DNA of 64,000 bases from Candidatus Harrisonbacteria bacterium. GTDB lineage: Bacteria > Patescibacteriota > Minisyncoccia > UBA6257 > 1-14-0-10-40-38. Location of the stretch: the NCBI GenBank assembly GCA_023245035.1, contig JAHFLD010000003.1:55736-119735 (forward strand), read 5' to 3'. This document shows positions 5,893 to 61,129 of this stretch, one piece after another (position 1 is the stretch's first letter; the number at the start of each line of letters is the position of its first letter). A program made the translations under genes and the position numbers. Under the pieces are notes generated by a model. The model was given only the letters and a program-made list of their open reading frames with translations, was not told where the DNA came from and did not search any database.

Positions 5893-6829
5893 AGGATTTT
5901 GGTAAATTCCGTGGAGAGTTTTTCCGATTTACTTGCCCACTGATTGTGGGCATTTTTATTATTTCCCCGTCTAGCGTATCTATTGCTTGTGAGCCTATTG
6001 GCATAATGTGATTAGGCGCTATAATTTGTTTATTGAGCGTGAGATTTTAGGGTTATATGAGGTGGGGCCTTCCAAGAAGGTCCAAGCACTGCATCCCAAC
6101 AAAATCCCGCGCTCTTTTTTTTCATCTCTTGGGCGTAGAGACTGTTTCGGTCTATGCCCACAGGGGAGTTGCGAGGGTGTTGACATGCTTTTTGATCTGG
6201 CTATACTTACTTTTACCTAATGAAGATTTTGCGACATACCAGGTGCGGCTCCTGACGTCTGTCTTTTGTTCTCTTCGAGAACTAGCCGCCCGCGAGGCGG
6301 TTTTTCATTAGGGCAATGCGAATGACGCGAAAAGGTTTACGAAATCATTTTTCTGCCTCATACTTCGTGACTCATATATAGGAAGTTCTGCGCTATCTGG
6401 ACTGGAGGATCTCGAGAACAGATAGTGCGGCGCTTAGTCGCACAATTTAAAAACGACTGAACTTTGATAATTTTAGATTGGGTCTTTTGTGTTTTGAAGA
6501 AGAGAGTGATTATATCCGATGCTTTAGTCGGCATCTGGATGATCAATTTGGGATTTGTGGTTAAACGCGCCCGGGATTTATTCCGGGTGTTAAGGGCGTA
6601 TGGTGGATGCCTAGACACAAAGTAGCGATGAAGGACGTGGCGTGGCTGCGATAAGCTTCGGGGAGGTGCTTAGCAACCTTTGATCCGGAGATTTCCGAAT
6701 GGGAAAACCCAATGCGGTAAACCCGCATTACTTCGACCTTGAGTCGAAGTGCTTACCCGCTGAAGTGAAACATCTCAGTAGGCGGAGGAAAAGAAAACAA
6801 TGCCGTTGTGGAACAACGGCGATTCCCTT

Positions 6830-6863
<34 letters not shown>

Positions 6864-6876
6864 TGGTTGTGCTTCG

Positions 6877-6976
6877 CACACTATCAACGAATAGCGAATA
6901 AAAAACCGAATGTACGAATGGATTAAATCCTCATTCGTAAATTCGCAATAGATTCGTAATTCGCTGATGAGCGTGC
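6877..6976 (+). repeat. 100-nt hairpin insertion copy 1 in 23S (helix 9/10 region), IVS-like
   Basis: Identical over 100 nt to the copies at 7475 and 8109. Internally four CGAAT units followed by four ATTCG units, giving a long imperfect hairpin. Flanked by a short copy-specific inverted repeat. Confidence 0.8.
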
Positions 6977-7236
6977 GGAGCGTAGCTGGGGGTTGTAAGG
7001 TAGAGACTTCTTGCTCATCGCCCAGTTCTTGAATAGTCGAGGACTTGGCGATCCGCAGGAAAAGAGTAAAAAATTCGCTAGTTAGCCGAGGCCGTTGGAA
7101 AGCGGCGCCAGAGCGGGTGATAGCCCCGTAGGCGAAAACATGCGAACTCTTGTTTCTATTCTTGAGTACCTCGAGGCAAACAAACCTTGAGGGAATCCGG
7201 GAGTACTATCTCCTAAGGCTGAATATACTTTGTGAT

Positions 7237-7267
<31 letters not shown>

Positions 7268-7474
7268 AAAAAGAACCCCGGAAGGGGAGTGAAATAGAAC
7301 CTGAAACCATATGCTTACAAGGAAGTGGAGCCCAATCTCGTAGCAATACGAGCCGGGTGACGCTGTGCCTATTGAAGAATGAGCCAACGACTTATTCTGT
7401 ACTGCTCATCTAAGCCATCTCTGATGGTGAAGGTAAAGCGAAAGCGAGTCTTAATAGGGCGATGTCGTGCTTCG

Positions 7475-7574
7475 CACACTATCAACGAATAGCGAATAAA
7501 AAACCGAATGTACGAATGGATTAAATCCTCATTCGTAAATTCGCAATAGATTCGTAATTCGCTGATGAGCGTGC
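7475..7574 (+). repeat. 100-nt hairpin insertion copy 2 in 23S at the helix-25 position (E. coli about 540-550), a classical IVS site
   Basis: Inserted between ...TCTTAATAGGGCGATGTC and AAGCAGTACGGGATAGACCCGAAGCC, corresponding to E. coli ...TCTTAACTGGGCG / GGGTATAGACCCGAAACC. Confidence 0.8.
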
Positions 7575-8108
7575 GGGGCACGCACAAGCAGTACGGGATA
7601 GACCCGAAGCCAGACGAGCTTACCCTGGGCAGGATGAAGTCCCGAGAAATCGGGATGGAGGTCCGAACTGGTGGGTTGTGCAAAACCCTCGGATGACCTG
7701 GGGTAGGGAGTGAAAAGCTAATCGAGTTTGGTAATAGCTGGTTCTCTCCGAAATAGTTTTAGGACTAGCGCTTCGTAAAAAGTCGTGAGGGGTAGAGCTA
7801 CTGGTTCGGGGGTATAGGGCGAAAGCTCGACCTTCGAGTCAAACTCCGAATACTCACGATTACGCGAAGTAGTCAGTACGTGGGGGCCAAGCTCCATGTA
7901 CGCAAGGGGAACAGCCCAGATCGCAGTCTAAGGTCCCTAAATTCTTACTAAGTGTTAAAGGTAGTCATCACCCATAGACAGATAGGAGGTTGGCTTAGAG
8001 GTAGCCATCCTTTAAAGAGTGTGTAACAACTCACTATTCGACGGTTGGTGGCGCCAAAAATGTACCGGGGCTAAGTAAGATACCGAAGACGCGGGTGTGT
8101 GTGCGTAG

Positions 8109-8208
8109 CACACTATCAACGAATAGCGAATAAAAAACCGAATGTACGAATGGATTAAATCCTCATTCGTAAATTCGGAATAGATTCGTAATTCGCTGAT
8201 GAGCGTGC
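8109..8208 (+). repeat. 100-nt hairpin insertion copy 3 in 23S at the helix-45 position (E. coli about 1170), a classical IVS site
   Basis: Inserted between ACCGAAGACGCGGG and GGTAGGAGAGC, corresponding to E. coli CACCGAAGCTGCGG ... GGGTAGGGGAGCG. One substitution relative to copies 1 and 2. Confidence 0.8.
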
Positions 8209-8968
8209 TACGCGTACACGCGGTAGGAGAGCATTTCTAGTGCGCTGAAGCGTGAGCCGCGAGGCCGCGTGGAGCGCTAGGAAGAGAGAATGTTGGTATG
8301 AGTAACCACATTTCCTATGAGAAATAGGAACCCCGAAAATCCAAGGTTTCCGTGGCAATGACAATCAACCACGGGTTAGGCGATCCTAAGGCGATGGTGA
8401 AAACCGCAGCTGACGGGAAGCCGGTTAATATTCCGGCCCATGCATATTTGTGCGATGGAGTGACGGAGGAAAAAAGATTGAGCGCCTTAATGGTTTGGCG
8501 TCGGGCGTGTTAAGGGACGTACCCCTGGAAAATCCGGAGTACTGTGTTTAATCACGAGTTCCGCGCACGTACGTAAGGTGAAGTTTTTACTTCGCTAATT
8601 CAATCGAAGAGCCTTCCGAGAAAAACTTCTAAGTTTAGAATATGGATTTCGTACCGTAAACCGACACAGGTGGATAGGGCGAGTAGCCCAAGGGGAACGA
8701 GTGATTCTTCGTTAAGGAACTCGGCAAAAAAGCGGCCGTAAGTTAGCGATAAGGCCTGCCCTTCGCAAGAAGGGCCGCAGCGAAAGTATCTCTGGCGACT
8801 GTTTACCAAAAACACAGCTCCCTGCTAACTCGCAAGAGGATGTATAGGGGGTGACGCCTGACCGATGCGAGAAGGTCAACGGTGGCTGTGCCAGGTAGTT
8901 TACTCTGTCTGGTGCGGACTGCCCGAAGCCCTCGTCAATGTCAGCGATAACTATAATCGTTCTAAGGT

Positions 8969-9167
8969 TCTGTATTGGATTTCGATCTAATGCAGAAGGA
9001 TTGGGACGATTATGGTCTGGTAAAAAGTTTAATATTACATTGGTGCAAAATATAGCTACCTCATCATGCAGTAATGCGTGAATGATCCTACGCGACTCCA
9101 AGAGACTATACGTCGTGCCCCCGTAATTCGGGGTGAAGATATAGTCCTTCGCATAAAGGAAGTGAAG
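8969..9167 (+). other. ORF-less group-I-like intron in 23S near E. coli position 1917
   Basis: Removing 8969-9167 restores CTAAGGT|AGCGCAATTCC, matching E. coli CTAAGGTAGCGAAATTCC. The upstream exon ends in U and the insert ends in G. It contains the group I core segment GAAGATATAGTCC and a GCAGTAATGCGTG block shared with the second intron. Confidence 0.7.
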
Positions 9168-9828
9168 AGCGCAATTCCTTTTCGGGTAAGTTCCGAAGCG
9201 CACGAATGGCGTAACGACTGGAGAACTGTCTCAACGAAGAGCTCGGTGAAAATGCGATACCCGTGAAGACGCGGGTTACCTGCAGCAAGACGAAAAGACC
9301 CCGGAAGCTTTACTGTAGCTTGGTATTGTCTTTAGGATTTATATGCGTAGTGTAGTGGCGAGGATTTGAAGCGTTGATTTCGGTTGACGTGGATCCGACA
9401 ATGAAACAGCCATCTTATGAATTTTAAAGTCTAACCCCGGCGGAAAAAACGCCGCGGGACAGTGCCTGGTGGGCAGTTTTAATGGGGCGTTATCCTCCAA
9501 AAAAGTAACGGAGGAGTTTATTAAGGTTGGCTTAGCCCGGATGGAAATCGGGCCGGACGTGTAAATGCACAAGCCAGCTTAACGGCAAGACCTACAAGTC
9601 GCGCCGGTGCGAAAGCAGAAATTAGTGACCCGACCACTCGTCATAGAAGGGTGGAAGACAACGGATAAAAGTTACTCCGGGGATAACAGGCTAGTCTCCT
9701 CCGAGCGTCCACAGCGACGAGGAGGATCGGCACCTCGATGTCGGCTCGCCCTAGCGCGGGGGTGGAGAAGCTCCCAAGCGTGTGGCTGTTCGCCACTTAA
9801 AAGGGCACGTGAGCTGGGTTCAAACCGT

Positions 9829-10143
9829 TGATGTGCTAATTACACGCCATAGAAGCGTGAATTTATTGGCGCATGAGCGGTTTGAGTCCAGATCCACACA
9901 TCGATTATTGTTTTAGTCTTTTCGTTTCTGAAAAAGTATAGTCATCAATCAAATCACGGCGGTCTTAAGAAGTAATTTTTAAGAACCCAGTTAACTTATT
10001 TCGGTGAAACCCAATGTGGGCAATACCGAGGGAATTCTTTGCGAAGCAAAGATGCCCGTAGAGACTACACGTTAACCCCCTAAATCGCGTAAGCGATCGG
10101 GTGAAGATATAGTCCAATGCACGCAGTAATGCGTGGAAACATG
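9829..10143 (+). other. ORF-less group-I-like intron in 23S near E. coli position 2593
   Basis: Removing 9829-10143 restores GGGTTCAAACCGT|CGTGAGACAGG, matching E. coli GGGTTTAGAACGTCGTGAGACAG. The insert ends in G after a U-ending exon and contains GGGTGAAGATATAGTCC plus GCAGTAATGCGTG. Confidence 0.7.
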
Positions 10144-10260
10144 CGTGAGACAGGTTGGTCTCTATCTGTTGTAGGCGTTAAACACTTGAAGGGAGTCGAC
10201 CCTAGTACGAGAGGACCGGGTTGAACGAACCGCTGGTCGGCCGGCTTTGGTACCAACTGA

Positions 10261-10319
<59 letters not shown>

Positions 10320-10847
10320 ACCCTAAGATGAGGTGTTTTTGCGTGGCGCAAGCTGCGCGAGCGATCGGTCGTAGACCACGACCTTGATAGGCTCTCGGTG
10401 TACGCACAGCAATGTGTTTAGCCATGGAGTACTAATGATCGCAGTTACCCATTTCCCAAATTGATCATCCAGATGCCCATTAGATAAGAGTTCCGCTGGA
10501 ACTTATGTAATGCGGTGTCAGTAAACTTCTTTAAAAAAACAAAAGACAAACCGAGATCCGGAGAAGGGTCTGGCGCGCAAATGCTCTTGTCGGGATAGAT
10601 AATCCGACATCAGTCATCACTTGCCGACTGGCTTCGTCTGTCTAGCGAAGTTTGGTTTTGGCGGTGGCGTTCGGTTTTGGCTCCAGTCTGGTACTGTTAA
10701 TACCATGGCTGTCCGGCCCGAATGTAGCTAAGCATTGAGCACGGTTTTCCTTCTGCGGAGCTTGGTCGTTCCAATCAAACGACCGAGCTCCGCCCTTTCT
10801 CCGGGTTTCGGTGTTAACCTTACGAAAAAGATTTTCTTCAGCGATTT

Positions 10848-10962
10848 CCTGGTGATCTAGCGAAACGTGACCCACCTCTTCCCATTCCGAATAGAGAAGT
10901 GAAAGCGTTTCACTCCGATGATACTTGGCCTTTCGGGGCTCGGGAAAGTAGGATTTGCCGGG
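10848..10962 (+). rRNA. rrf: 5S rRNA
   Basis: CCTGGTGATCTAGCG...CCCACCTCTTCCCATTCCGAATAGAGAAGTGAAAGCG...GGGAAAGTAGGATTTGCCGGG aligns over its whole length to the bacterial 5S consensus (CCCATGCCGAACTCAGAAGTGAAAC...GAGAGTAGG). Lies 400 nt downstream of 23S. Confidence 0.85.
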
Positions 10963-11032
10963 AATTCATTGCAGAAAATTTTTTCCGATATACAGATTTT
11001 TTTATATATCATCATCGTGATAAGATTTGGCA

Positions 11033-22084: not shown

Positions 22085-22513
22085 ATGGATGTTATAGATG
22101 ATGTTCGCAAAGAATATGAGTTGGCTTTTATGTTGGCTCTGCCCGAAGAGGAGGCGGAGCTGGAAAAGGCCTTGCTTGAAGCCAAGGTAGAGATTCGCGC
22201 TCGGCGTCCTTTGGCGGCGGTGCGACTGGCGTACCCGATAAAAAAACAAAACACCGCCCATTTTGGCGCTTGGAAGTTTGTGGCTTTGCCGAATTCGGTG
22301 CAGGCAATACGGCTTTCGCTGGGATTGCGTTCAAAAGTAATTCGCTTCTTGATTACGGCGGTTGCTCCGGAGCGGCAGGTTCCGGCACCGGTGAAACCGG
22401 AAGTTAAAGAGGCCGCCACGCCGGCAAAGCCGACGAAAGCTCGAGCGCGAGTTAAGCCTCAAGTTTTGAGCAACGAGGCGCTTGAGGAAAAGCTAGTAGA
22501 AATTTTGAAGTAG
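22085..22513 (+). CDS. rpsF: 30S ribosomal protein S6
   Basis: YELAFML...RLAYPIKK...HFGAW matches the S6 signature. Canonical rpsF-ssb-rpsR order. Confidence 0.8.
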   Translation: MDVIDDVRKEYELAFMLALPEEEAELEKALLEAKVEIRARRPLAAVRLAYPIKKQNTAHFGAWKFVALPNSVQAIRLSLGLRSKVIRFLITAVAPERQVPAPVKPEVKEAATPAKPTKARARVKPQVLSNEALEEKLVEILK

Positions 22514-26355: not shown

Positions 26356-27567
26356 GTGAGATTTTGGCCTTCAGTTCTACCTTTAGTTTTTGGCGCTAAT
26401 CACGGAGAGCGGTTTTTTGTAATTTGCTTTGAAGCCTCGGGCGTGCGCCTGTATCGCCTGGAGGCGAGGCGAGAAACAAAAACACTCAAGGTGCTTAGCG
26501 CTCTATATACGCCGGTTGCTTCACCCACATATTCCGTTTTGGTTGCGGCGGCGCGACAGATGAGTCGCCGGTTTTTGGATTTTAAAACTTCGCGGGTGTT
26601 GGTGCTTACCGGGGCGCGTTTGGCGACGGTTATTTTGGGAGGCGCGAGCATGGCCCGGGAAGATGCCGAACGCGAAATTGACGAGACGGAGTTGGAGAAC
26701 TCTTTTGTGCAGGCGCTCTGGCAGGCTTTTGACCGCGAGCGAGCCTCGGCGGGCATTAAGATGCGAGTCCATGACTTGGAGGTGGCGGTGGCGGATGTGA
26801 GGTTGCTACGCACCGTGCTTGATGGGCACGCCGTTCCTAATCCAATCGGTTTTTCGGCCAAAGAAATTTCTTTTTCTTTTGAAATTGTTTTGAGCCCCAA
26901 GTATTTTTTGCGCCAGCTTTATGAGTTTATTTCCGAGGAGCAATTGGTTTTTATCTCCGATCGGGGGGCGGTTTACGCGCAGTTTCTTACGCGATCCACG
27001 GAGAAGCTACCGGAGTTTTCTTTATTGTATGCCGACCTGCGACACGGCGATTTATATGCTGGCGGTCTTCAAGGTTTGCGTTTTTTGGGCGAGGTGGCGT
27101 GGGGGAGGGAGGCGATCGGGCAATCTTTGCAAAACGATTTTTGTTTGCCGCTGTCTTCGGTTGAGGCGTTTTATCGCCGTTTGGTGGCGGCTGATTTTGG
27201 GCCCGGGGTTTTGCGCGGCGCTAAAAAATCTTTTTCGGGGGCGCTCGCAAAGTGCTTGGCGTCGCTTTACGAACGCGATAGCGGTATTTTTTCCCGTCCC
27301 TTGTTTTTGGCCTCGTCGTTTGATCTTCCCCGCTGGTTTTTTGAGAAGTCGGTGCGTTTAGCCCCCTGGCCGCCGTTGGACATCAAGTTGGCGGAGGTTG
27401 CCGGGTTGCCACTTGCTCCCAAAATCATTCTTGCCTCCGGAGTTAGCGCTCCTTCCCGCGCTCTAGCCGATCTTTTGGTTTTTCATGCCGCTTTTTCTTT
27501 GACGCCGTCTCGTGATAAAATTGACAGAGTGGCAAGGAGGCACGCTCGCTGGCTTCTAGCTTCATAA
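26356..27567 (+). CDS. Hypothetical protein, possible actin-fold ATPase (FtsA/PilM-like)
   Basis: 403 aa. An N-terminal FFVICFEASGVRLYRL beta-hairpin resembles the phosphate-1 motif of actin-fold proteins, and a C-terminal LASGVSA segment resembles the adenosine motif. Starts at a GTG. The stop lies 4 nt before the next gene, suggesting an operon. Confidence 0.45.
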   Translation: MRFWPSVLPLVFGANHGERFFVICFEASGVRLYRLEARRETKTLKVLSALYTPVASPTYSVLVAAARQMSRRFLDFKTSRVLVLTGARLATVILGGASMAREDAEREIDETELENSFVQALWQAFDRERASAGIKMRVHDLEVAVADVRLLRTVLDGHAVPNPIGFSAKEISFSFEIVLSPKYFLRQLYEFISEEQLVFISDRGAVYAQFLTRSTEKLPEFSLLYADLRHGDLYAGGLQGLRFLGEVAWGREAIGQSLQNDFCLPLSSVEAFYRRLVAADFGPGVLRGAKKSFSGALAKCLASLYERDSGIFSRPLFLASSFDLPRWFFEKSVRLAPWPPLDIKLAEVAGLPLAPKIILASGVSAPSRALADLLVFHAAFSLTPSRDKIDRVARRHARWLLAS

Positions 27568-36000: not shown

Positions 36001-37034
36001 CTATTTTTCTATTGCTTATTGGAATTTCGGTTTTAATTTTTATTCATGAGCTCGGGCATTTTTTGTGCGCCAAGGCATTCGGGTTGTACGTGGAGGAGTT
36101 CGGTTTTGGATTTCCGCCACGGTTGTTTGGCAAAAAAATAGGGGAGACCGTCTATAGCTTTAATCTTTTGCCGTTTGGCGGATTTGTGAAGATTTTTGGC
36201 GAGCGGGCGGATTTGAACGACGAAGAAGGGAAGCAGCCGCAAATTCCACCGGAGCGCAATTTTTCGCGCCAAAGCATTTGGAAGCGTTTTGTGATTATCG
36301 CGGCCGGAGTGGTGATGAACTTTTTTTTGGGCTGGGTTTTGCTGTCGTTCCTTTTCTTTACCGGTCTTTCTGGTCCGGTGATAGTTTCCGATGTTGCAGT
36401 CGGTTCGCCGGCGGAGGCGGCGGGTTTTAAAACCGGCGACGGCTTGGTTGATTTTCGGAGTTCCACGGCCTTTGTTGATTTCGTAGCTCAACATCGCGGC
36501 GAGGCGGTGACTTTTTCGATACTTCGAGCGACGACCACCTTGTCGGTTGTCGCTACTCCGGATTTGAATCCCGCAGTGGGGCGCGGCGCCTTGGGTGTGG
36601 CGGTTTCGGAATCCGGCTTTCCCGAACTTGGTTTTTTTGGCGCCATCAAGGCTGGACTATTTACCGCGGCGCAGACGATTTGGCTGATTATCTCATCGCT
36701 TGGCGTTTTGATTGCCGGTTTGTTTGTTGGTCGGGCGCCGGCGCAGGCCTTTGTCGGACCGATTGGTATTTTTCAAATTGCCGCGCAGAGCGCGCGGTTT
36801 GGTTTACTGCACTTGGTACAACTGGTGGCGCTAATTTCTTTGAATCTTGCCGTCTTAAACGCGGTGCCGTTCCCGGCGCTTGACGGCGGGCGGATGCTTT
36901 TTTTACTGATTGAAAAAATAAAGGGGAGCGCTCTTTCGGCCAAGCGGGAGATGATAGCGAACGCCATTGGGTTCTGGTTGCTTATCTTGCTTATGATTTT
37001 TGTGACGGCGCGGGATGTGATTAAGCTGTTTTAG
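35997..37034 (+). CDS. rseP: Site-2 protease, M50 family zinc metalloprotease (RseP-like)
   Basis: HELGHF zinc motif in the first TM helix, LLPFGGFV, a PDZ-like middle region, and a C-terminal LDGG motif. Start overlaps the frr stop. Confidence 0.85.
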   Translation: MTIFLLLIGISVLIFIHELGHFLCAKAFGLYVEEFGFGFPPRLFGKKIGETVYSFNLLPFGGFVKIFGERADLNDEEGKQPQIPPERNFSRQSIWKRFVIIAAGVVMNFFLGWVLLSFLFFTGLSGPVIVSDVAVGSPAEAAGFKTGDGLVDFRSSTAFVDFVAQHRGEAVTFSILRATTTLSVVATPDLNPAVGRGALGVAVSESGFPELGFFGAIKAGLFTAAQTIWLIISSLGVLIAGLFVGRAPAQAFVGPIGIFQIAAQSARFGLLHLVQLVALISLNLAVLNAVPFPALDGGRMLFLLIEKIKGSALSAKREMIANAIGFWLLILLMIFVTARDVIKLF

Positions 37035-37109
37035 AGATAAAAAATATGGAGTAAGAGGTGGGGAAAACGGTGTCCCGATTGTCATGCCAGCGAAGGCTGG
37101 CATCTTAGT

Positions 37110-37150
37110 GTTATCCCTTGACGGATTTGGATATAATATGCTATATTAGC
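37110..37150 (+). promoter_or_regulatory. Putative sigma-70-type promoter for the GC-rich inserted gene
   Basis: TTGACG (37118-37123) followed by TATAAT and TATATT hexamers in an AT-rich stretch. Spacing to either -10 element is non-ideal (8 or 19 nt). Confidence 0.3.
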
Positions 37151-37267
37151 AAATGTTCGTTAGGGCTCTTTTAAAACCGAAAACTGGTCTTTCGAAACAC
37201 TGTGTTTCCGCCAGATTTTGCCATAAAAGAGCTTCGTTTCCGCTCAAACCGGAAGGGTGTGGATTTC

Positions 37268-38023
37268 ATGTCTACGCAAGATTCAAGTCCGTGGGAAAGG
37301 CTGATGAAGCTCATCGCCTCCATCGTTCTTCTGGTCCAAGAGGGGAGTCGGAACCTCAAGGAGGTCATGGAGTTTGCCGACTTCTTTCAGATCGTGAAGG
37401 ACAGGTCGGGATTCTTCGCCGACTTCAAGGCCTTCCTCGCCTCGCGCGCCCTTGGCGCAAAGTCCGAGACGGCTCCCTTCGTCAACTTCGCCTCCATCTG
37501 GAGGCAAGTCTACGTCAAGCTCGGCATCAAAGCCGACTTCTGGGATCTGGCCATTGAATACCGTCCCGGATACTGGCCAATCGTAGTATACGAGGACATG
37601 ACTCCGCAGAAGGTGATGAACGCCATCAAGGGGGCCAATCTCTTCCTCACATGGCAATACGCCACCGATCTTGATGCCGCTATCACCAAGAATGACCGAG
37701 ACCCCAAGACTGGATTCTACGTGGTCTACGTGAAAGCAAGCCAAGAAGCCGACCCCGAGTTCAAGAATCTCTCGGCCAACCAGCTCAAGAAGCAGAACAT
37801 CAAGGGAATCACCCTCCTTGAGCGGATTCTCCTTGAGGTCTTCCACTTCATCCTCTCGGATGGCCAGCATCTAGACATCCAGAGCTTCACGCTCTGCTCC
37901 GGTTCGTGGAACTCCTACGGTAATGTGCCGCACGTGAGCTGGCACGATGGTAAGATGGATGCCAGTTGGCACAATCCTGAGCGTCGGGCTGACTGGCTGC
38001 GGTCTCGAGTAGTAGTTTCGTAG
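37268..38023 (+). CDS. Hypothetical protein with atypical GC-rich codon usage, likely horizontally acquired
   Basis: About 251 aa from the ATG at 37268 (a GTG alternative at 37202). Third codon positions are strongly C/G-biased, unlike neighbouring genes. GGAAGG Shine-Dalgarno-like sequence 12 nt upstream. No recognised motif. Confidence 0.6.
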   Translation: MSTQDSSPWERLMKLIASIVLLVQEGSRNLKEVMEFADFFQIVKDRSGFFADFKAFLASRALGAKSETAPFVNFASIWRQVYVKLGIKADFWDLAIEYRPGYWPIVVYEDMTPQKVMNAIKGANLFLTWQYATDLDAAITKNDRDPKTGFYVVYVKASQEADPEFKNLSANQLKKQNIKGITLLERILLEVFHFILSDGQHLDIQSFTLCSGSWNSYGNVPHVSWHDGKMDASWHNPERRADWLRSRVVVS

Positions 38024-38044
38024 CCCTTCGCTCTTTTCCACTTA

Positions 38045-38076
38045 CGCCCCACACAAATGTGTGGGGCGTTTTCTTA
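38045..38076 (+). terminator. Rho-independent terminator
   Basis: cgccccacac-aaat-gtgtggggcg perfect 10-bp stem followed by TTTTCTT. Confidence 0.7.
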
Positions 38077-38121
38077 TCTTTGTTATTTGCAGAAGCACTT
38101 TTAAATCTATAGAATAACCAC

Positions 38122-39402
38122 ATGTTGCAGTCGGAACTTTTTACTAAAACTCGCAAGGAGGCGCCAAAGGACGAGGAGGCGATTAATGCCCAGCTTTTAG
38201 CACGCGGTGGGTTTGCGCGAAAAATGTCGGCCGGAGTTTATACCTATTTGCCGCTGGGTTTTCGGGTACTGCAGAAAATAGCCCAGGTGGTGAGAGAGGA
38301 GATGAATGCCATCGGAGGCGAGGAGCTGTTGTTTCCCGCGCTTATCGCGAGGGAGCACTGGGAAAAATCCAAGCGCTGGGGATTGAGGGTCGGCTACGAG
38401 TTCAAGTCGCCGGCGGGCGATGAGGTTGGTTTGGGCTGGACGCACGAAGAGGCGTCGGCTTTTGCCGCGGCGCAGTTTATAGAATCCTATAAGGACTTGC
38501 CCCGAGCCGTGTACCAGATCCAAAATAAGTTTCGGGCCGAGGCTCGCGCCAAGAGCGGACTATTGCGCGGGCGGGAGTTTTTAATGAAAGATCTTTACAG
38601 TTTTCATGCCGATAAGGCGGATCTGGATTTGTATTATCAAAAAGTTATCGCGGCTTATAAAAAAGTTTTTGTGCGACTCAATGTTCCGGTGCGATTGACC
38701 GAGGCCGGAGGCGGAGCCTTTACCGACGAGTATACCCACGAGTTTCAAGCTCTTTCTCCAGCGGGCGAGGACACGGTTTATTATTGCCCAAAGTGTGATT
38801 GGTCGCAGAACGAGGAGGTCGCGAAGGTTAAGGATGGCGAGAGGTGTCCCGCCTCTACGGCGGGCGAGCCCGCTTCTTCGGCTAACGAGCCTGCTTCTTC
38901 AGTTTGCGGTGGGACGGTTGCGATTGCTCGTGGAATTGAAGTCGGCAACGTTTTCAAACTTGGCACCAGGTATAGCGAGGCTTTTGGCGTGCAATTCACC
39001 GATCAGACCGGAAGCAAAAAACCGGCGGTGATGGGCTCTTACGGTATTGGCGTGAGTCGATTGCTCGCGACGCTGGTGGAATTACATCACGACGAAAGAG
39101 GTATTATCTGGCCAAAGGAGGCTTCGCCTTTTGCGGTTCATCTTCTGGTTCTGGGCGCCGAAGATACGGCAGTTGAGGCGCGGGGCCGAAAGGTGTACGA
39201 TTCGCTAACCAAGCGGGGAGTGGAGGTGCTTTATGATGATCGCGCCGTTTCGGCTGGAGAAAAGTTTGGCGATGCCGATTTGTTGGGCATAAGTCTTCGG
39301 GCGGTGGTTAGCGCTAAAACCGGAGACAAGATTGAGCTCAAGCGGAGGGACTCCAAAGAGGTTAAGCTTGTAACGCTTGAGGAGGCGATGGAGATGTTGT
39401 AG
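38122..39402 (+). CDS. proS: Prolyl-tRNA synthetase (class II), with a Cys-containing insertion
   Basis: ProRS signature (YTYLPLGFRVLQKI..REEM; motif 2 FRAE.R...GLLRGREFLMKDLYSFH; motif 3 region GGGAFT). Carries an insertion CPKCDWSQ...ERCPAS..(GEPASSA NEPASS)..CGG between motifs 2 and 3. Confidence 0.88.
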   Translation: MLQSELFTKTRKEAPKDEEAINAQLLARGGFARKMSAGVYTYLPLGFRVLQKIAQVVREEMNAIGGEELLFPALIAREHWEKSKRWGLRVGYEFKSPAGDEVGLGWTHEEASAFAAAQFIESYKDLPRAVYQIQNKFRAEARAKSGLLRGREFLMKDLYSFHADKADLDLYYQKVIAAYKKVFVRLNVPVRLTEAGGGAFTDEYTHEFQALSPAGEDTVYYCPKCDWSQNEEVAKVKDGERCPASTAGEPASSANEPASSVCGGTVAIARGIEVGNVFKLGTRYSEAFGVQFTDQTGSKKPAVMGSYGIGVSRLLATLVELHHDERGIIWPKEASPFAVHLLVLGAEDTAVEARGRKVYDSLTKRGVEVLYDDRAVSAGEKFGDADLLGISLRAVVSAKTGDKIELKRRDSKEVKLVTLEEAMEML

Positions 39403-53024: not shown

Positions 53025-53903
53025 CTAATCGCAGAAGCAGAATTCCGGCTGGACGGCTGTTTGACCGCAGGTGACTGGAATGGAGGTGTTGGCAACTGTG
53101 ACGCCGCCGGTGGAGCACTGCAGGCCGTGCGCCGAACAGACGCTGGTACAGGAGGTCGCGCCGAAGATGGCAATGACTTGATAACCGCGGCCGCCGCCGT
53201 CGTAATTGGCGGCTTCGTTTACTTGACCGTTAACAATGGAGTAATTATTCAAATAGAGACTTTTCCATTGGGTGCCCGAGCTGCCAAGATCGTAAAGCGG
53301 CGGGGTGCCGGCTGGAATAAGATTGGAATCAAAAGTTGCGGCCGAGACACGGGTGGCGGCGGAGGTTACTTGGCGCTGGGCGCTGTAGGCGGGATTGGTG
53401 GTGTTGTATTGCAGGGTGATGTTGATTTGCACCAGGTCGTGTCCGGGAGGGGAGCTGAACTTGGTATAGACCAAACCTCCGGCTGGAACGGTAACCGCGT
53501 CGGTGGTAAGTACTCTGGCGGCGGGGAAATTACATTGAGCCGGATCGGTTAGCGAGGCGCCTTCGGCGATCTTGATGGCGCCAAGCTCGGCGTAAACGCA
53601 GGTTGGATCCTTGAGGCGATCCTTCATCCGAAGTTTGAGGACGTTGCGAGTCGTTCCGGTCTGGGCGTCATTGTTGCTAAAATCGTCGTTAACAATGACC
53701 GCGCTTGATTCGCGCACCAACTGTTGGATTCGTTGCATAGACAAGTTCAGCTGGCTGGTGACTTCGCTTGACGAAGATTGGCGAACTTGCACTTTGGTTG
53801 CCGTGCTTAAAATATTGGCGAAGAGAGTTGCCATCACGGTTGTGATGCCCATGTAGATTAATAGTTCCAGCAAACTAAAACCGCTTTGGTGGTTGGGCCT
53901 CAT
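53025..53903 (-). CDS. Type IV pilin-like protein with prepilin N-terminal cleavage/methylation domain
   Basis: N-terminus MRPNHQSG|FSLLELLIYMGI is a class III signal peptide with the G-F-x-x-x-E motif. C-terminus carries 8 Cys in 40 aa. Confidence 0.7.
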   Translation of the reverse strand: MRPNHQSGFSLLELLIYMGITTVMATLFANILSTATKVQVRQSSSSEVTSQLNLSMQRIQQLVRESSAVIVNDDFSNNDAQTGTTRNVLKLRMKDRLKDPTCVYAELGAIKIAEGASLTDPAQCNFPAARVLTTDAVTVPAGGLVYTKFSSPPGHDLVQINITLQYNTTNPAYSAQRQVTSAATRVSAATFDSNLIPAGTPPLYDLGSSGTQWKSLYLNNYSIVNGQVNEAANYDGGGRGYQVIAIFGATSCTSVCSAHGLQCSTGGVTVANTSIPVTCGQTAVQPEFCFCD

Positions 53904-60816: not shown

Positions 60817-60871
60817 GCCAATGTAGCTCAGATGGTAGACCCGCCTGCCGGACGGGCAGGGCAACTCCATG
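60817..60871 (+). pseudogene. Partial 5' copy of tRNA-Thr(GGU): nt 1-34 interrupted by a 21-nt palindromic insert
   Basis: 60817-60839 is identical to nt 1-23 of the intact tRNA at 61120, and 60861-60871 is identical to nt 24-34 (GCAACTCCATG). The 21-nt insert CCCGCCTGCCGGACGGGCAGG (60840-60860) forms a hairpin. The sequence then diverges into the GIY-YIG ORF. Confidence 0.8.
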
Positions 60872-61129
60872 TATTATGTTTATGTTCTTAAAAGCTTAAG
60901 TGATCAAAAGCATTACACTGGAATGTCTATTGATCTTGAAAAAAGACTACGAAAGCATAATCGCGGCGCCAAGGGAACTCCATCAACTCGATCTCGCGGC
61001 CCGTTCTCATTAGTTTATTGCGAGAGAGTAGCTACTAGGGTAGAAGCAAGAAGAAGGGAGAAGTTTTTGAAATCAGGATTTGGCAGGGAGTTTATAAAGA
61101 ATTTTGTTGAAAAAGATTTGCCAATGTAG
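60869..61129 (+). CDS. Minimal GIY-YIG nuclease-domain protein (86 aa)
   Basis: MYYVYVLKS...HYTGMS.DLEKRLRKHN matches the GIY-YIG catalytic core (GIY..YIG..R..H.N). The start codon is the ATG of the tRNA anticodon-loop copy, and the stop TAG lies inside the first 10 nt of the intact tRNA-Thr. AT-rich. Confidence 0.7.
   Translation: MYYVYVLKSLSDQKHYTGMSIDLEKRLRKHNRGAKGTPSTRSRGPFSLVYCERVATRVEARRREKFLKSGFGREFIKNFVEKDLPM

What the first reader, a model, noticed from the sequence alone, without database searches (positions are those of the whole stretch)
37100..38080. GC-rich gene with foreign codon usage, own promoter-like region and strong terminator, wedged between rseP and proS
ORF 37268-38023 uses C/G-ending codons almost exclusively (ctc, ggc, aag, gac, ttc ...), whereas the flanking rseP and proS use T/A-rich third positions. 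It is preceded by an AT-rich block with TTGACG and TATAAT hexamers and followed by a perfect 10-bp-stem terminator. The 251-aa product has no motif I recognise (W/Y-rich, SWHDGKMDASWHNPERRADW C-terminus). A single-gene horizontally acquired insert in an otherwise housekeeping operon suggests a toxin, immunity or defence-type accessory function.
Basis: seen in the sequence. Interest (0 to 1): 0.65.

Follow-up and report, generated by a model that had tools for sequence, protein, structure and literature searches.

The report
Solo DGR variable-protein gene in Patescibacteria
The odd-looking gene between rseP and proS is a stand-alone copy of a large, unannotated family of small binding proteins whose tips are rewritten by a diversity-generating retroelement in ultra-small (CPR) bacteria; it is not a toxin or immunity gene, and its unusual codon usage is a trait of the whole family.

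Summary
ORF 37268-38023 (+) is real. It has the highest GC3 of 46 long ORFs (0.74 vs 0.54±0.06; C3 0.43 vs 0.23), though overall GC is normal and the neighbours are not AT3-rich. It has its own promoter-like site and an 11-bp terminator hairpin. It is inserted in a frr-rseP-proS-mreB array that is uninterrupted in ~30 relatives.

It is not a toxin or defence gene. It belongs to a Patescibacteria-specific family (2,249 clusters, no Pfam model). In 34 of 82 loci, members head a target-TR-Avd-RT cassette in which VR/TR mismatches fall almost only on template adenines. The predicted fold is C-type-lectin/FGE-like, as in TvpA, Mtd and TaqVP.

The window's last ~120 nt carry the DGR footprint: NNY codons at 10 of 11 template-AAY columns. 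No template or RT lies within about -47/+33 kb, so this is a solo copy. Other solo copies show VR-restricted hypervariation, so trans diversification is plausible. Here, however, the VR is identical in three assemblies.

The GC3 excess is family-wide (56 of 61 loci), so it does not show recent transfer. Verdict: new member of a known kind, with two unexplained family-level features.

The parts
37118..37147 (+). Promoter-like site for the inserted gene: TTGACG, 18-nt spacer, TG-extended TATATT
   Evidence: 10 of 12 matches, TG present. Consensus match only; the count in the region does not exceed shuffles.
37165..37267 (+). Conserved 5' leader with a Shine-Dalgarno-like GGAAGGG 10 nt before the ATG, and a possible closing stem GCUCUUUUA / UAAAAGAGC (37165-37173 / 37224-37232)
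   Evidence: 81% identical to L003 7900-8033, while the coding DNA is about 70% identical. The stem is present in window and L003. The fold z-score is -1.5, not significant. An in-frame TGA at -33 in L003 argues against the upstream GTG 37202 start (sequence).
37268..38023 (+). Coding sequence, 251 aa. Residues 1-75 form a poorly conserved helical N-terminal region. Residues ~76-251 form a confidently modelled C-type-lectin/FGE-like domain.
37898..38020 (+). Variable region (VR) equivalent. The mutable core is about 37910-37996; the constant 3' end (IMH-like) is 37997-38020 (CTGCGGTCTCGAGTAGTAGTTTCG).
   Evidence: in the column-wise map of 31 proven TRs, the window has NNY codons at 10 of 11 AAY columns. 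It matches the family consensus at 1 of 11 hot columns and 15 of 20 cold columns; model R1, built from proven DGR targets, hits 37984-38042 (33 bits, E 2.3e-9), the only strong hit in 64 kb.
38024..38043 (+). Pyrimidine-rich non-coding spacer CCCTTCGCTCTTTTCCACTT, a shortened and degenerate version of the family's heptad-CTT spacer
   Evidence: near-identical in L001 and similar in L003 and L072; it is not significant on its own against the spacer-only model R2 (5.2 bits, E 2.7).
38044..38069 (+). GC-rich hairpin (11-bp stem, loop AAAT) followed by a T tract 38070-38083. It is an intrinsic-terminator-like element in the position of the DGR target hairpin/cruciform.
   Evidence: It starts at +21 after the stop. 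L072 has a hairpin at the same position with a different, compensated stem. Assemblies break here.
37283..37870 (-). Antisense shadow ORF (195 aa) created by the high GC3. It is not a gene, but public gene calls on the long contigs annotate it in place of the true gene.

Best explanation
The gene encodes a small, soluble protein with no signal peptide or TM segment. It belongs to a large Patescibacteria-specific family of diversity-generating-retroelement (DGR) variable proteins. The body of the protein is a C-type-lectin/FGE-like scaffold. The last ~40 residues (GSWNSYGNVPHVSWHDGKMDASWHNPERRADW...) form the variable ligand-binding surface.

In the family's canonical cassette (target - template repeat - Avd - reverse transcriptase), the template RNA is reverse-transcribed with adenine-specific errors. 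The resulting cDNA replaces the VR, rewriting AAY codons into many amino acids. The 3' end of the VR and a downstream hairpin mark the target.

Shown: family membership, the fold, the DGR codon footprint in this VR, the retained 3' end and hairpin, the insertion into a conserved housekeeping array, and the absence of a TR or RT within about -47/+33 kb.

Inferred: this VR sequence was written by a DGR, and the copy is either still serviced in trans by a DGR elsewhere in the genome (my estimate about 45%) or is now a frozen former target (about 55%). The ligand and cellular role are unknown. I infer ligand or partner recognition inside the cell or at a cell-cell interface, not toxicity.
For: 1. 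Homology. There are 67 close and 2,249 cluster-level relatives, all single-domain proteins of about 190-290 aa from CPR MAGs.

2. Proven DGR linkage of relatives. In L011 the VR (8559-8684) and TR (9013-9138) show 20 of 20 mismatches at TR adenines, with bAvd and RVT_1 adjacent. Of 82 loci, 34 carry the same cassette, with TRs 220-330 nt after the stop and mismatches at A in 15/15, 16/16, 20/20 and so on.

4. Footprint in the window VR. NNY codons occupy 10 of 11 template-AAY columns. The window agrees with the family consensus at 1 of 11 hot columns against 15 of 20 cold columns.

5. 3' element. R1, trained only on cassette-linked targets, hits the window once, at 37984-38042, and hits the 3' end of almost every other solo copy tested. 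A hairpin of the right size and position follows (benchmark from PMC3240598).

6. Solo copies elsewhere are hypervariable only in the VR. For L008 vs L174 there are 31 differences in 117 nt of VR against 15 in 441 nt of scaffold (p 1e-12), 26 of the 31 at codon positions 1-2, and none in the last 13 nt or the 100 nt downstream. Same-genome paralogs L045/L062 and L015/L072 behave likewise.

7. Literature. A CPR-restricted DGR clade has targets that lack TM or other recognisable domains (PMC8144416). Remote targets and one cassette architecture dominant in CPR are documented (PMC5758913).
Against: No cognate template repeat, RT or Avd was found in the 64-kb window. None was found in 10 kb of DNA to the left or in the gene lists 10 kb left and about 7 kb right of the window.

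The VR is identical in three independent assemblies, including a strain whose proS is about 9% diverged, so there is no sign of ongoing diversification here.

The otherwise invariant Arg of 'GSR' is Trp (TGG). One hot column also holds TGG, which adenine mutagenesis of AAC cannot produce.

The spacer alone is not significantly similar to the family's heptad-CTT spacer. The hairpin loop AAAT does not fit the phage-DGR GRNA consensus. The R1 score rests largely on coding sequence, so it is partly a restatement of protein homology.
Confidence: 0.82

Rival explanations
1. Frozen relic. The gene descends from a DGR target but is no longer diversified in this lineage, because the RT/TR was lost or was never co-transferred. 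It now functions as an ordinary fixed-sequence binding protein.
For: No TR, RT or Avd within about -47/+33 kb. The VR is identical across three assemblies including a diverged strain. There are non-canonical substitutions at an invariant column and at one hot column. The spacer is degenerate.
Against: The ORF is intact, with its promoter, a conserved leader, the 3' end and the hairpin all retained. Other solo copies show VR-restricted hypervariation. The source contig is only part of the genome, and DGRs can act on targets more than 100 kb away (PMC5758913).
Confidence: 0.45
2. One reading: a recently acquired foreign gene encoding a toxin, immunity or anti-phage defence function, with the codon bias marking its foreign origin.
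For: It is an insertion in a conserved array and its composition deviates. The junction hosts other accessory ORFs in some relatives. Some DGRs do diversify putative conflict-system sensors (PMC10907252, title and abstract seen).
Against: There is no PADLOC, PHROG or Pfam hit, no partner gene, no effector or toxin domain, and the protein is a single CLec-like domain. The GC3 excess is family-wide and independent of host GC. A related strain carries the same gene at the same place.
Confidence: 0.06
3. The real gene is the antisense ORF 37283-37870 (-), as annotated on the long public contigs.
For: Gene callers chose it on at least two assemblies.
Against: The + strand product has thousands of homologs with conserved motifs, a confident fold and in-frame DGR VR/TR pairs in relatives. 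Long antisense ORFs are expected when GC3 is high, and the same shadow ORFs appear in L011.
Confidence: 0.01

Closest known systems
Variable proteins of the Patescibacteria/CPR-restricted DGR clade (clade 2 of Roux et al. 2021, PMC8144416; 'CPR set', architecture B3, of Wu et al. 2018, PMC5758913)
   Same: Same host group. Small proteins without a TM segment, signal peptide or recognisable domain, with the VR at the extreme C-terminus. Relatives sit in a target-TR-Avd-RT cassette with adenine-specific VR/TR mismatches.
   Different: This copy has no TR, Avd or RT nearby. Published surveys detect only RT-adjacent targets and describe CPR DGRs as mostly single-target. In this family, by contrast, about half of the callable loci are solo copies dispersed in housekeeping neighbourhoods.
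TvpA of Treponema denticola (PDB 2y3c) and its remote paralogous targets
   Different: No detectable sequence similarity. TvpA is a lipoprotein-type surface protein, whereas this family lacks export signals. No cognate TR has been identified here.
Mtd of Bordetella phage BPP-1 (PDB 1yu0) and its target-site elements (IMH plus hairpin/cruciform; Guo et al. 2011, PMC3240598)
   Different: This is a cellular gene, not a phage gene. The stem is 11 bp, the loop is AAAT rather than GRNA, and the hairpin also looks like an intrinsic terminator. The family has a heptad-CTT spacer that was not mentioned in the DGR papers I consulted.
Formylglycine-generating-enzyme / C-type lectin fold superfamily (e.g. 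1y4j, EgtB C-domains)
   Different: No Pfam FGE-sulfatase or Lectin_C match for any of 33 members. No catalytic motif was assessed. The similarity is at fold level only.

Membership tests
DGR variable (target) protein | Homology to proteins whose C-terminal VR is paired with a TR differing only at adenines | tested here: met
   P0053/L011: 20 of 20 mismatches at TR adenines. 34 of 82 family loci have a TR and/or RT. The window protein aligns end to end with them.
DGR variable (target) protein | A cognate template repeat for this gene's own VR | tested here: inconclusive
   None in the 64-kb window, in 10 kb of flanking DNA, or among 31 TRs from other genomes.
DGR variable (target) protein | DGR reverse transcriptase and Avd in the same genome | tested here: inconclusive
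   Absent from the window (tblastn best E 0.5, and that ORF is pilin-like). Absent from gene lists extending 10 kb left and about 7 kb right. The remaining ~43 kb of the contig and the other contigs were not seen.
DGR variable (target) protein | C-type-lectin-type fold carrying the VR | tested here: met
DGR variable (target) protein | Codon footprint of adenine mutagenesis in the VR (NNY codons and AAC-accessible residues at template-AAY positions; conserved elsewhere) | tested here: met
   10 of 11 hot columns are NNY and 10 of 11 hold accessible residues. Consensus match is 1 of 11 hot vs 15 of 20 cold. Exceptions: TGG at column 13 and at hot column 44.
DGR variable (target) protein | Conserved constant 3' end of the VR (IMH-like) | tested here: met
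   R1, built from cassette-linked copies only, scores 33 bits (E 2.3e-9) at 37984-38042, the single strong hit in the window. Caveat: this segment is coding, so it is not independent of protein homology.
DGR variable (target) protein | GC-rich hairpin 4-34 bp downstream of the VR with a 4-nt GRNA loop (phage-DGR consensus, PMC3240598) | tested here: inconclusive
   Geometry is met: 11-bp stem, 8 GC pairs, 4-nt loop, at +21. The loop sequence AAAT does not match GRNA. Only 34% of DGRs have such repeats at all.
CPR family-specific heptad-CTT spacer | TAA-cc-CTTnnnn-CTTnnnn-CTTnnnn-CCTT immediately after the stop codon | tested here: not met
   Spacer-only model R2 gives 5.2 bits (E 2.7) at 38024-38043, rank 9 in the window. 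By contrast, 22 of 34 other solo loci score E < 0.05 at their 3' ends. The window subfamily has a shortened variant shared with L001 and L072.
Pfam FGE-sulfatase / Lectin_C sequence families | Significant HMM match | tested here: not met
   No hit for the window protein or any of 33 family members. The profile against PDB sequences gave no hit.
Toxin-antitoxin / anti-phage defence system | Match to known defence or toxin models, or a conserved partner gene | tested here: not met
   PADLOC gave 0 hits. It is a single gene between rseP and proS. Homolog neighbourhoods share no partner other than the DGR genes.
Intrinsic (rho-independent) terminator | GC-rich stem-loop followed by a T tract | tested here: met
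   38044-38069 followed by TTTTCTTATCT. Consensus match only; function was not tested.

The most novel reading that the evidence does not exclude
Solo copies such as this one may be dispersed promoter-to-hairpin modules that remain trans-targets of a single distant CPR DGR. If so, CPR genomes would run multi-target, genome-wide DGR networks that RT-centred surveys miss. The two family-level signatures seen here would then be undescribed consequences or requirements of the CPR DGR mechanism. These are a GC3/C3 excess over the host in 56 of 61 loci and a heptad-spaced CTT spacer after the VR. Possible explanations include recombination-driven GC-biased conversion around a homing hot spot and a target-marking protein-binding array.
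Probability: 0.25. Interest if true: 0.65.

Novelty: new member of a known kind. Interest (0 to 1): 0.48.

Why it matters
For annotation: a family of more than 2,000 clusters, abundant in Patescibacteria, has no Pfam model. In this locus public gene callers annotate it on the wrong strand, because high GC3 opens an antisense ORF.

For biology: whether CPR DGR targets are truly intracellular, and what they bind, is an open question (Roux 2021). About half of this family's callable loci are solo copies in housekeeping neighbourhoods, and some are hypervariable only in the VR. That suggests trans-acting DGRs in these tiny genomes diversify more genes than cassette-based surveys count.

For genome scanning: it is a caution that 'foreign codon usage' can be an intrinsic trait of a gene family rather than evidence of recent transfer.

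Tried and rejected
1. RT candidate in the window. The best tblastn hit (E 0.5) fell in ORF 53025-53903 (-), which is also C3-rich. Pfam shows only an N-terminal methylation (pilin-like) motif, so it is not an RT.

2. Riboswitch or known RNA in the leader or 3' region. Rfam at E ≤ 10 gave only noise. The leader fold z-score is -1.5.

3. Translational selection as the cause of the C3 bias. The gene's C3 (0.43) lies far above the + strand genes in general (about 0.2). The best-conserved + strand genes in the window, 22085-22513 and 26356-27567, have C3 of 0.11 and 0.20. I took these to be rpsL and tuf from their position, but did not verify that by search.

4. Transposon-like boundaries. There are no terminal inverted repeats. 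The only flanking direct repeat is an imperfect 17-mer (14 of 17), probably chance.

5. Upstream GTG start at 37202. Rejected because the homologous leader in L003 has an in-frame stop.

6. Shared TR for the window and L001/L003 VRs. Rejected because they differ at many third positions and non-A-type sites (45 mismatches to the TR inferred from L015/L072, only 11 of them at inferred A).

7. Cognate TR among 31 TRs from other genomes. None found.

9. My first two gene-end parsers failed. One was fooled by TR hits merged into tblastn matches and the other had a wrong regex. Both were corrected.

Full report
OBSERVATION. The window (GC 0.497) reads as a Patescibacteria/CPR genome. It has a 3.9-kb 23S rRNA with insertions including a group I intron, short rseP and proS genes, two mreB genes and ribosomal operons.

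The flagged ORF is real: 37268-38023 on the + strand, 251 aa. Its overall GC content (0.55) is unremarkable (z 1.3). Its third positions are not: GC3 is 0.738 against 0.544 ± 0.056 for 45 other ORFs of at least 150 aa, above their maximum of 0.645. C3 is 0.433 vs 0.233 and T3 is 0.159 vs 0.298. GC skew turns negative across the gene. The bias spans codons 26-225 and disappears in the last 25 codons.

'Almost exclusively' G/C-ending is really 74%. The neighbours are not A/T-rich at third positions (rseP GC3 0.57, proS 0.59).

A promoter-like TTGACG-18-TGnTATATT lies at 37118-37147. A perfect 11-bp hairpin with a 4-nt loop and a T tract lies at 38044-38069. No Pfam, NCBIfam, PHROG, PADLOC, PDB-sequence or Rfam match exists for the gene or its flanks.

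WHAT THE PROTEIN IS. The large protein database returned 67 relatives, all unannotated and all from Parcubacteria, Magasanikbacteria, Falkowbacteria or Paceibacterota-type MAGs. An exhaustive profile search found 2,249 cluster representatives at 50% identity (1,115 at E ≤ 1e-30). Almost all are single-domain proteins of 190-290 aa.

The alignment shows a variable helical N-terminus. After it comes a strongly conserved core (NDR…EAD.E.KNLSA…ITLLER…HLD…TLC.GSR…VP), and then a C-terminal stretch that alternates invariant and hypervariable columns and ends in LR.R.VVS.

The decisive clue came from genomic context. In L011 the homolog is followed by a 126-nt repeat of its own 3' end, then bAvd and an RVT_1 reverse transcriptase. 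All 20 mismatches between the two repeat copies lie at adenines of the downstream copy: A>G 12, A>T 5, A>C 3. That is the defining signature of a diversity-generating retroelement.

I then fetched 79 more loci from species-representative genomes and parsed 82 family genes in total. Of these, 34 carry the same stereotyped cassette. The template repeat lies 220-330 nt after the stop codon, and Avd and RT follow at about +700-900. The VR/TR mismatches fall almost entirely on template adenines, for example 15/15, 16/16, 20/20 and 23/23. Another 35 loci have no TR or RT despite at least 3 kb of sequence on both sides ('solo'). The remaining 13 cannot be called.

At sequence level the family belongs to no Pfam or PDB family, even when searched with a profile or member by member. 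Only 1 of 33 members has even a marginally hydrophobic 19-residue window, and none has a signal-like N-terminus. This matches published descriptions. Roux et al. [quoted passage not shown] Wu et al. 2018 report one cassette architecture accounting for 90% of CPR DGRs, with targets that have almost no recognisable motifs (PMC5758913).

THE WINDOW COPY. The window contains no template. A permissive blastn of 37800-38080 against all 64 kb finds only the hairpin's own arms. It also has no RT or Avd. The weak RT hit lies in a pilin-like ORF.

Walking the 123.8-kb source contig added two further stretches, neither with an RT, TR or RVT_1. One is 10 kb of DNA and gene calls on the left. The other is about 7 kb of gene calls on the right. 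About 47 kb upstream and 33 kb downstream of the gene are therefore clear.

The VR nevertheless carries the DGR footprint. I mapped 31 proven TRs onto a VR protein alignment. Eleven columns have AAY in at least half of the templates. At those columns the window has NNY codons in 10 and AAC-accessible residues in 10, and it agrees with the family consensus in only 1. At 20 template-invariant columns it agrees in 15.

There are two departures. Trp (TGG) replaces the Arg of 'GSR', which is invariant in all 31 cassette-linked copies. One hot column also holds TGG, which adenine mutagenesis of AAC cannot produce.

CIS ELEMENTS. Across both classes the VR ends …CGYGCAGTAGTTTCNTAA. It is followed by a non-coding pyrimidine spacer in which CTT recurs every 7 nt (TAA-cc-CTTgtan-CTTtttn-CTTttac-CCTT). 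A GC-rich hairpin often begins at about +20 to +35, most often with a 4-nt loop. A stem of at least 7 bp is present in 15 of 34 cassette loci and 20 of 35 solo loci.

A sequence model built only from 30 cassette-linked 3' ends (R1) hits the window once with significance, at 37984-38042 (33 bits, E 2.3e-9; the next hit scores 14 bits). It also lands on the 3' end of almost every other solo copy tested. About half of R1 is coding sequence, however.

A spacer-only model (R2) gives the window's spacer just 5.2 bits (E 2.7), whereas 22 of 34 other solo loci score E < 0.05. The heptad-CTT spacer is therefore a real family feature, but it is shortened and degenerate in the window's subfamily. That subfamily (window, L001, L072) shares …CTCTTTTsCACTTA followed directly by a hairpin starting CGCCCC with an A-rich 4-nt loop. 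The distal stems differ with compensating changes.

The phage benchmark is a 7-10 bp GC-rich stem with a 4-nt GRNA loop, 4-34 bp after the VR, where stem structure rather than sequence matters (PMC3240598). The window's hairpin fits in geometry but not in loop sequence. It also has the form of an intrinsic terminator.

INSERTION. A metagenome scan with ProS returned 80 loci. In about 30 of them, with ProS 41-60% identical, the order frr-rseP-proS-mreB is conserved. rseP typically ends 5-150 nt before proS, and none has a family member at that junction. In a few relatives the junction holds other small accessory ORFs, such as a GIY-YIG-like ORF in L102 and a kinase-like ORF in L124.

Solo relatives sit in unrelated neighbourhoods. 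One lies between ribosomal protein genes S10 and L3 in L010.

The insert consists of a promoter, a ~105-nt leader, the gene and the hairpin. The leader is more conserved with L003 (81%) than the coding DNA is (about 70%). No terminal inverted repeats bound the insert. The only flanking direct repeat is an imperfect 17-mer.

CODON BIAS IS A FAMILY TRAIT. In all 7 loci first examined the family member exceeded its host's GC3 (z 2.1-7.8). Across 61 loci, with the VR excluded, 56 exceed the host mean. The mean excess is +0.16 for cassette copies and +0.20 for solo copies. In 46 loci the gene is the highest-GC3 ORF of its ~20-kb locus. Locus GC ranges from roughly 35% to 59%, and the correlation with host GC3 is only r = 0.43.

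In the one cassette examined for this (L011), no background ORF, the RT included, exceeds GC3 0.53. In the window, the gene's C3 (0.43) lies well above the + strand genes in general (about 0.2). A single recent transfer from a GC-rich donor therefore cannot explain the bias, and I could not explain it. Candidate explanations are biased gene conversion around a recombination hot spot, selection on strand composition, and frequent inter-CPR transfer with incomplete amelioration.

IS THE SOLO COPY STILL DIVERSIFIED? The evidence from other solo copies says it can be. L008 and L174 are orthologous solo loci with the same CofD-RlmN-Dxs-NUDIX-[target]-radical SAM synteny. They differ at 31 of 117 VR positions but only 15 of 441 scaffold positions (odds ratio 10, p 1e-12). 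In the VR, 26 of 31 differences are at codon positions 1-2. There are no differences in the last 13 nt or the next 100 nt.

Same-genome solo paralogs behave similarly. L045/L062 are 97% identical in the scaffold and 83% in the VR, with identical 3' ends. L015/L072 have 17 of 18 VR differences at positions 1-2. L015/L072 come from the genome of P0003, the window gene's second-closest homologue, which shares the conserved leader.

For the window itself the evidence points the other way. Two Logan contigs are 100% identical to it. The ENA contig L013 has only 4 mismatches in 1,196 nt across rseP-3', the leader, the gene and the VR, and then diverges to about 91% immediately after the stop codon. 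The same VR is therefore present in two strains that differ markedly next door. I cannot distinguish a recent sweep or recombination of the gene from an assembly chimera.

No cognate TR for any solo VR was found among 31 TRs from other genomes.

VERDICT. The finding is a genuine, intact, inserted accessory gene. It is a solo member of a known kind, the CLec-fold variable proteins of CPR DGRs, and not a toxin, immunity or defence gene. I put about 0.82 on the statement that it is a DGR-family variable protein whose VR was written by adenine mutagenesis. Within that, the odds are roughly even, slightly favouring a frozen relic, on whether it is still serviced in trans.

The unresolved points that make the locus worth a modest second look are family-level ones. 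They are the high fraction of solo copies, their VR-restricted hypervariation, the host-independent GC3 excess and the heptad-CTT spacer.

Noticed in passing
window 37283-37870 (-): Public gene calls on the long source contigs (ERZ27296333, SRR14366772, SRR14366769) annotate the 195-aa antisense shadow ORF instead of the true + strand gene. Only a 1.5-kb contig has the correct call (P0001, starting at Met13). High GC3 opens the antisense frame.
   Followed up: yes
L013 1-1480 vs window 36825-38298: There is a sharp identity breakpoint exactly at the gene's stop codon. Only 4 mismatches occur in 1,196 nt to the left (rseP 3' end, leader, gene, VR). To the right there is about 9% divergence plus a 6-nt indel (spacer, hairpin, proS). 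This is either recombination or a sweep of the gene between strains, or a chimeric metagenome contig.
   Followed up: partly
window 37165-37267; L003 7900-8033: The ~105-nt 5' leader is more conserved than the coding sequence (81% vs about 70%). It has a conserved 9-13 bp closing stem GCUCUUUUA/UAAAAGAGC. There is no Rfam match, the fold z-score is -1.5, and only three sequences are available.
   Followed up: partly
61 family loci (L001-L093), VR excluded: The DGR-target family is GC3/C3-rich relative to its host in 56 of 61 loci. It is the top-GC3 ORF of its locus in 46 of 61, irrespective of host GC and of cassette or solo status. In the one cassette checked (L011), the RT is not GC3-rich. 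Unexplained.
   Followed up: partly
30 cassette-linked loci, stop codon to +33 (alignment A6); e.g. L043 4484-4519: A non-coding spacer after the VR carries CTT at exact 7-nt intervals, three to four times (CCTTGTA repeated in L043). It is conserved across very divergent CPR genomes and absent from the TR side. It is not mentioned in the DGR papers I consulted.
   Followed up: partly
L001 8001-8748 vs window: L001 (P0002, 60% identical protein) has the closest tetranucleotide signature to the window of any locus (r 0.965, vs 0.979 between the window's halves). Its spacer and hairpin are almost identical. The P0002 gene and a contig of this organism co-occur in sample ERZ27280214. It may be a second solo copy in the same or a sister genome.
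   Followed up: partly
L010 8001-8744: A solo family member is inserted inside the ribosomal protein operon between S10 and L3, with GC3 0.81 against a host value of 0.50. Wu et al. 2018 also noted ribosomal protein genes inside some CPR DGR cassettes.
   Followed up: no
L102, L112, L124, L138 (rseP-proS gap): The rseP-proS junction holds other small accessory ORFs in some relatives (a GIY-YIG-like ORF, a retropepsin-like pair, a kinase-like ORF). It seems to be a permissive insertion site.
   Followed up: partly
window 36978-36994 and 38070-38086: An imperfect 17-nt direct repeat (TTGCTTATCTTGCTTAT / TTTCTTATCTTTGTTAT, 14 of 17) brackets the insert, with one copy inside the 3' end of rseP. 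It is probably chance.
   Followed up: no
window 6585-10452; 9936-10136: The 23S rRNA gene is 3.9 kb long against a 2.9-kb model. It has insertions including a group I intron, and 5S follows at 10848-10963. This is typical of CPR genomes.
   Followed up: no
window 53025-53903 (-): A 292-aa ORF has an N-terminal prepilin methylation motif and very high C3 (0.48). Most of that fits the strand-dependent skew seen in other minus-strand genes of the window.
   Followed up: partly
window 60869-61129 (+): A small GIY-YIG-domain ORF (86 aa) lies among tRNA genes. The identical protein is on at least 10 contigs, including several very short ones, and GIY-YIG ORFs also neighbour family members in L011 and L102. 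It may be a mobile homing-endonuclease-like element.
   Followed up: no
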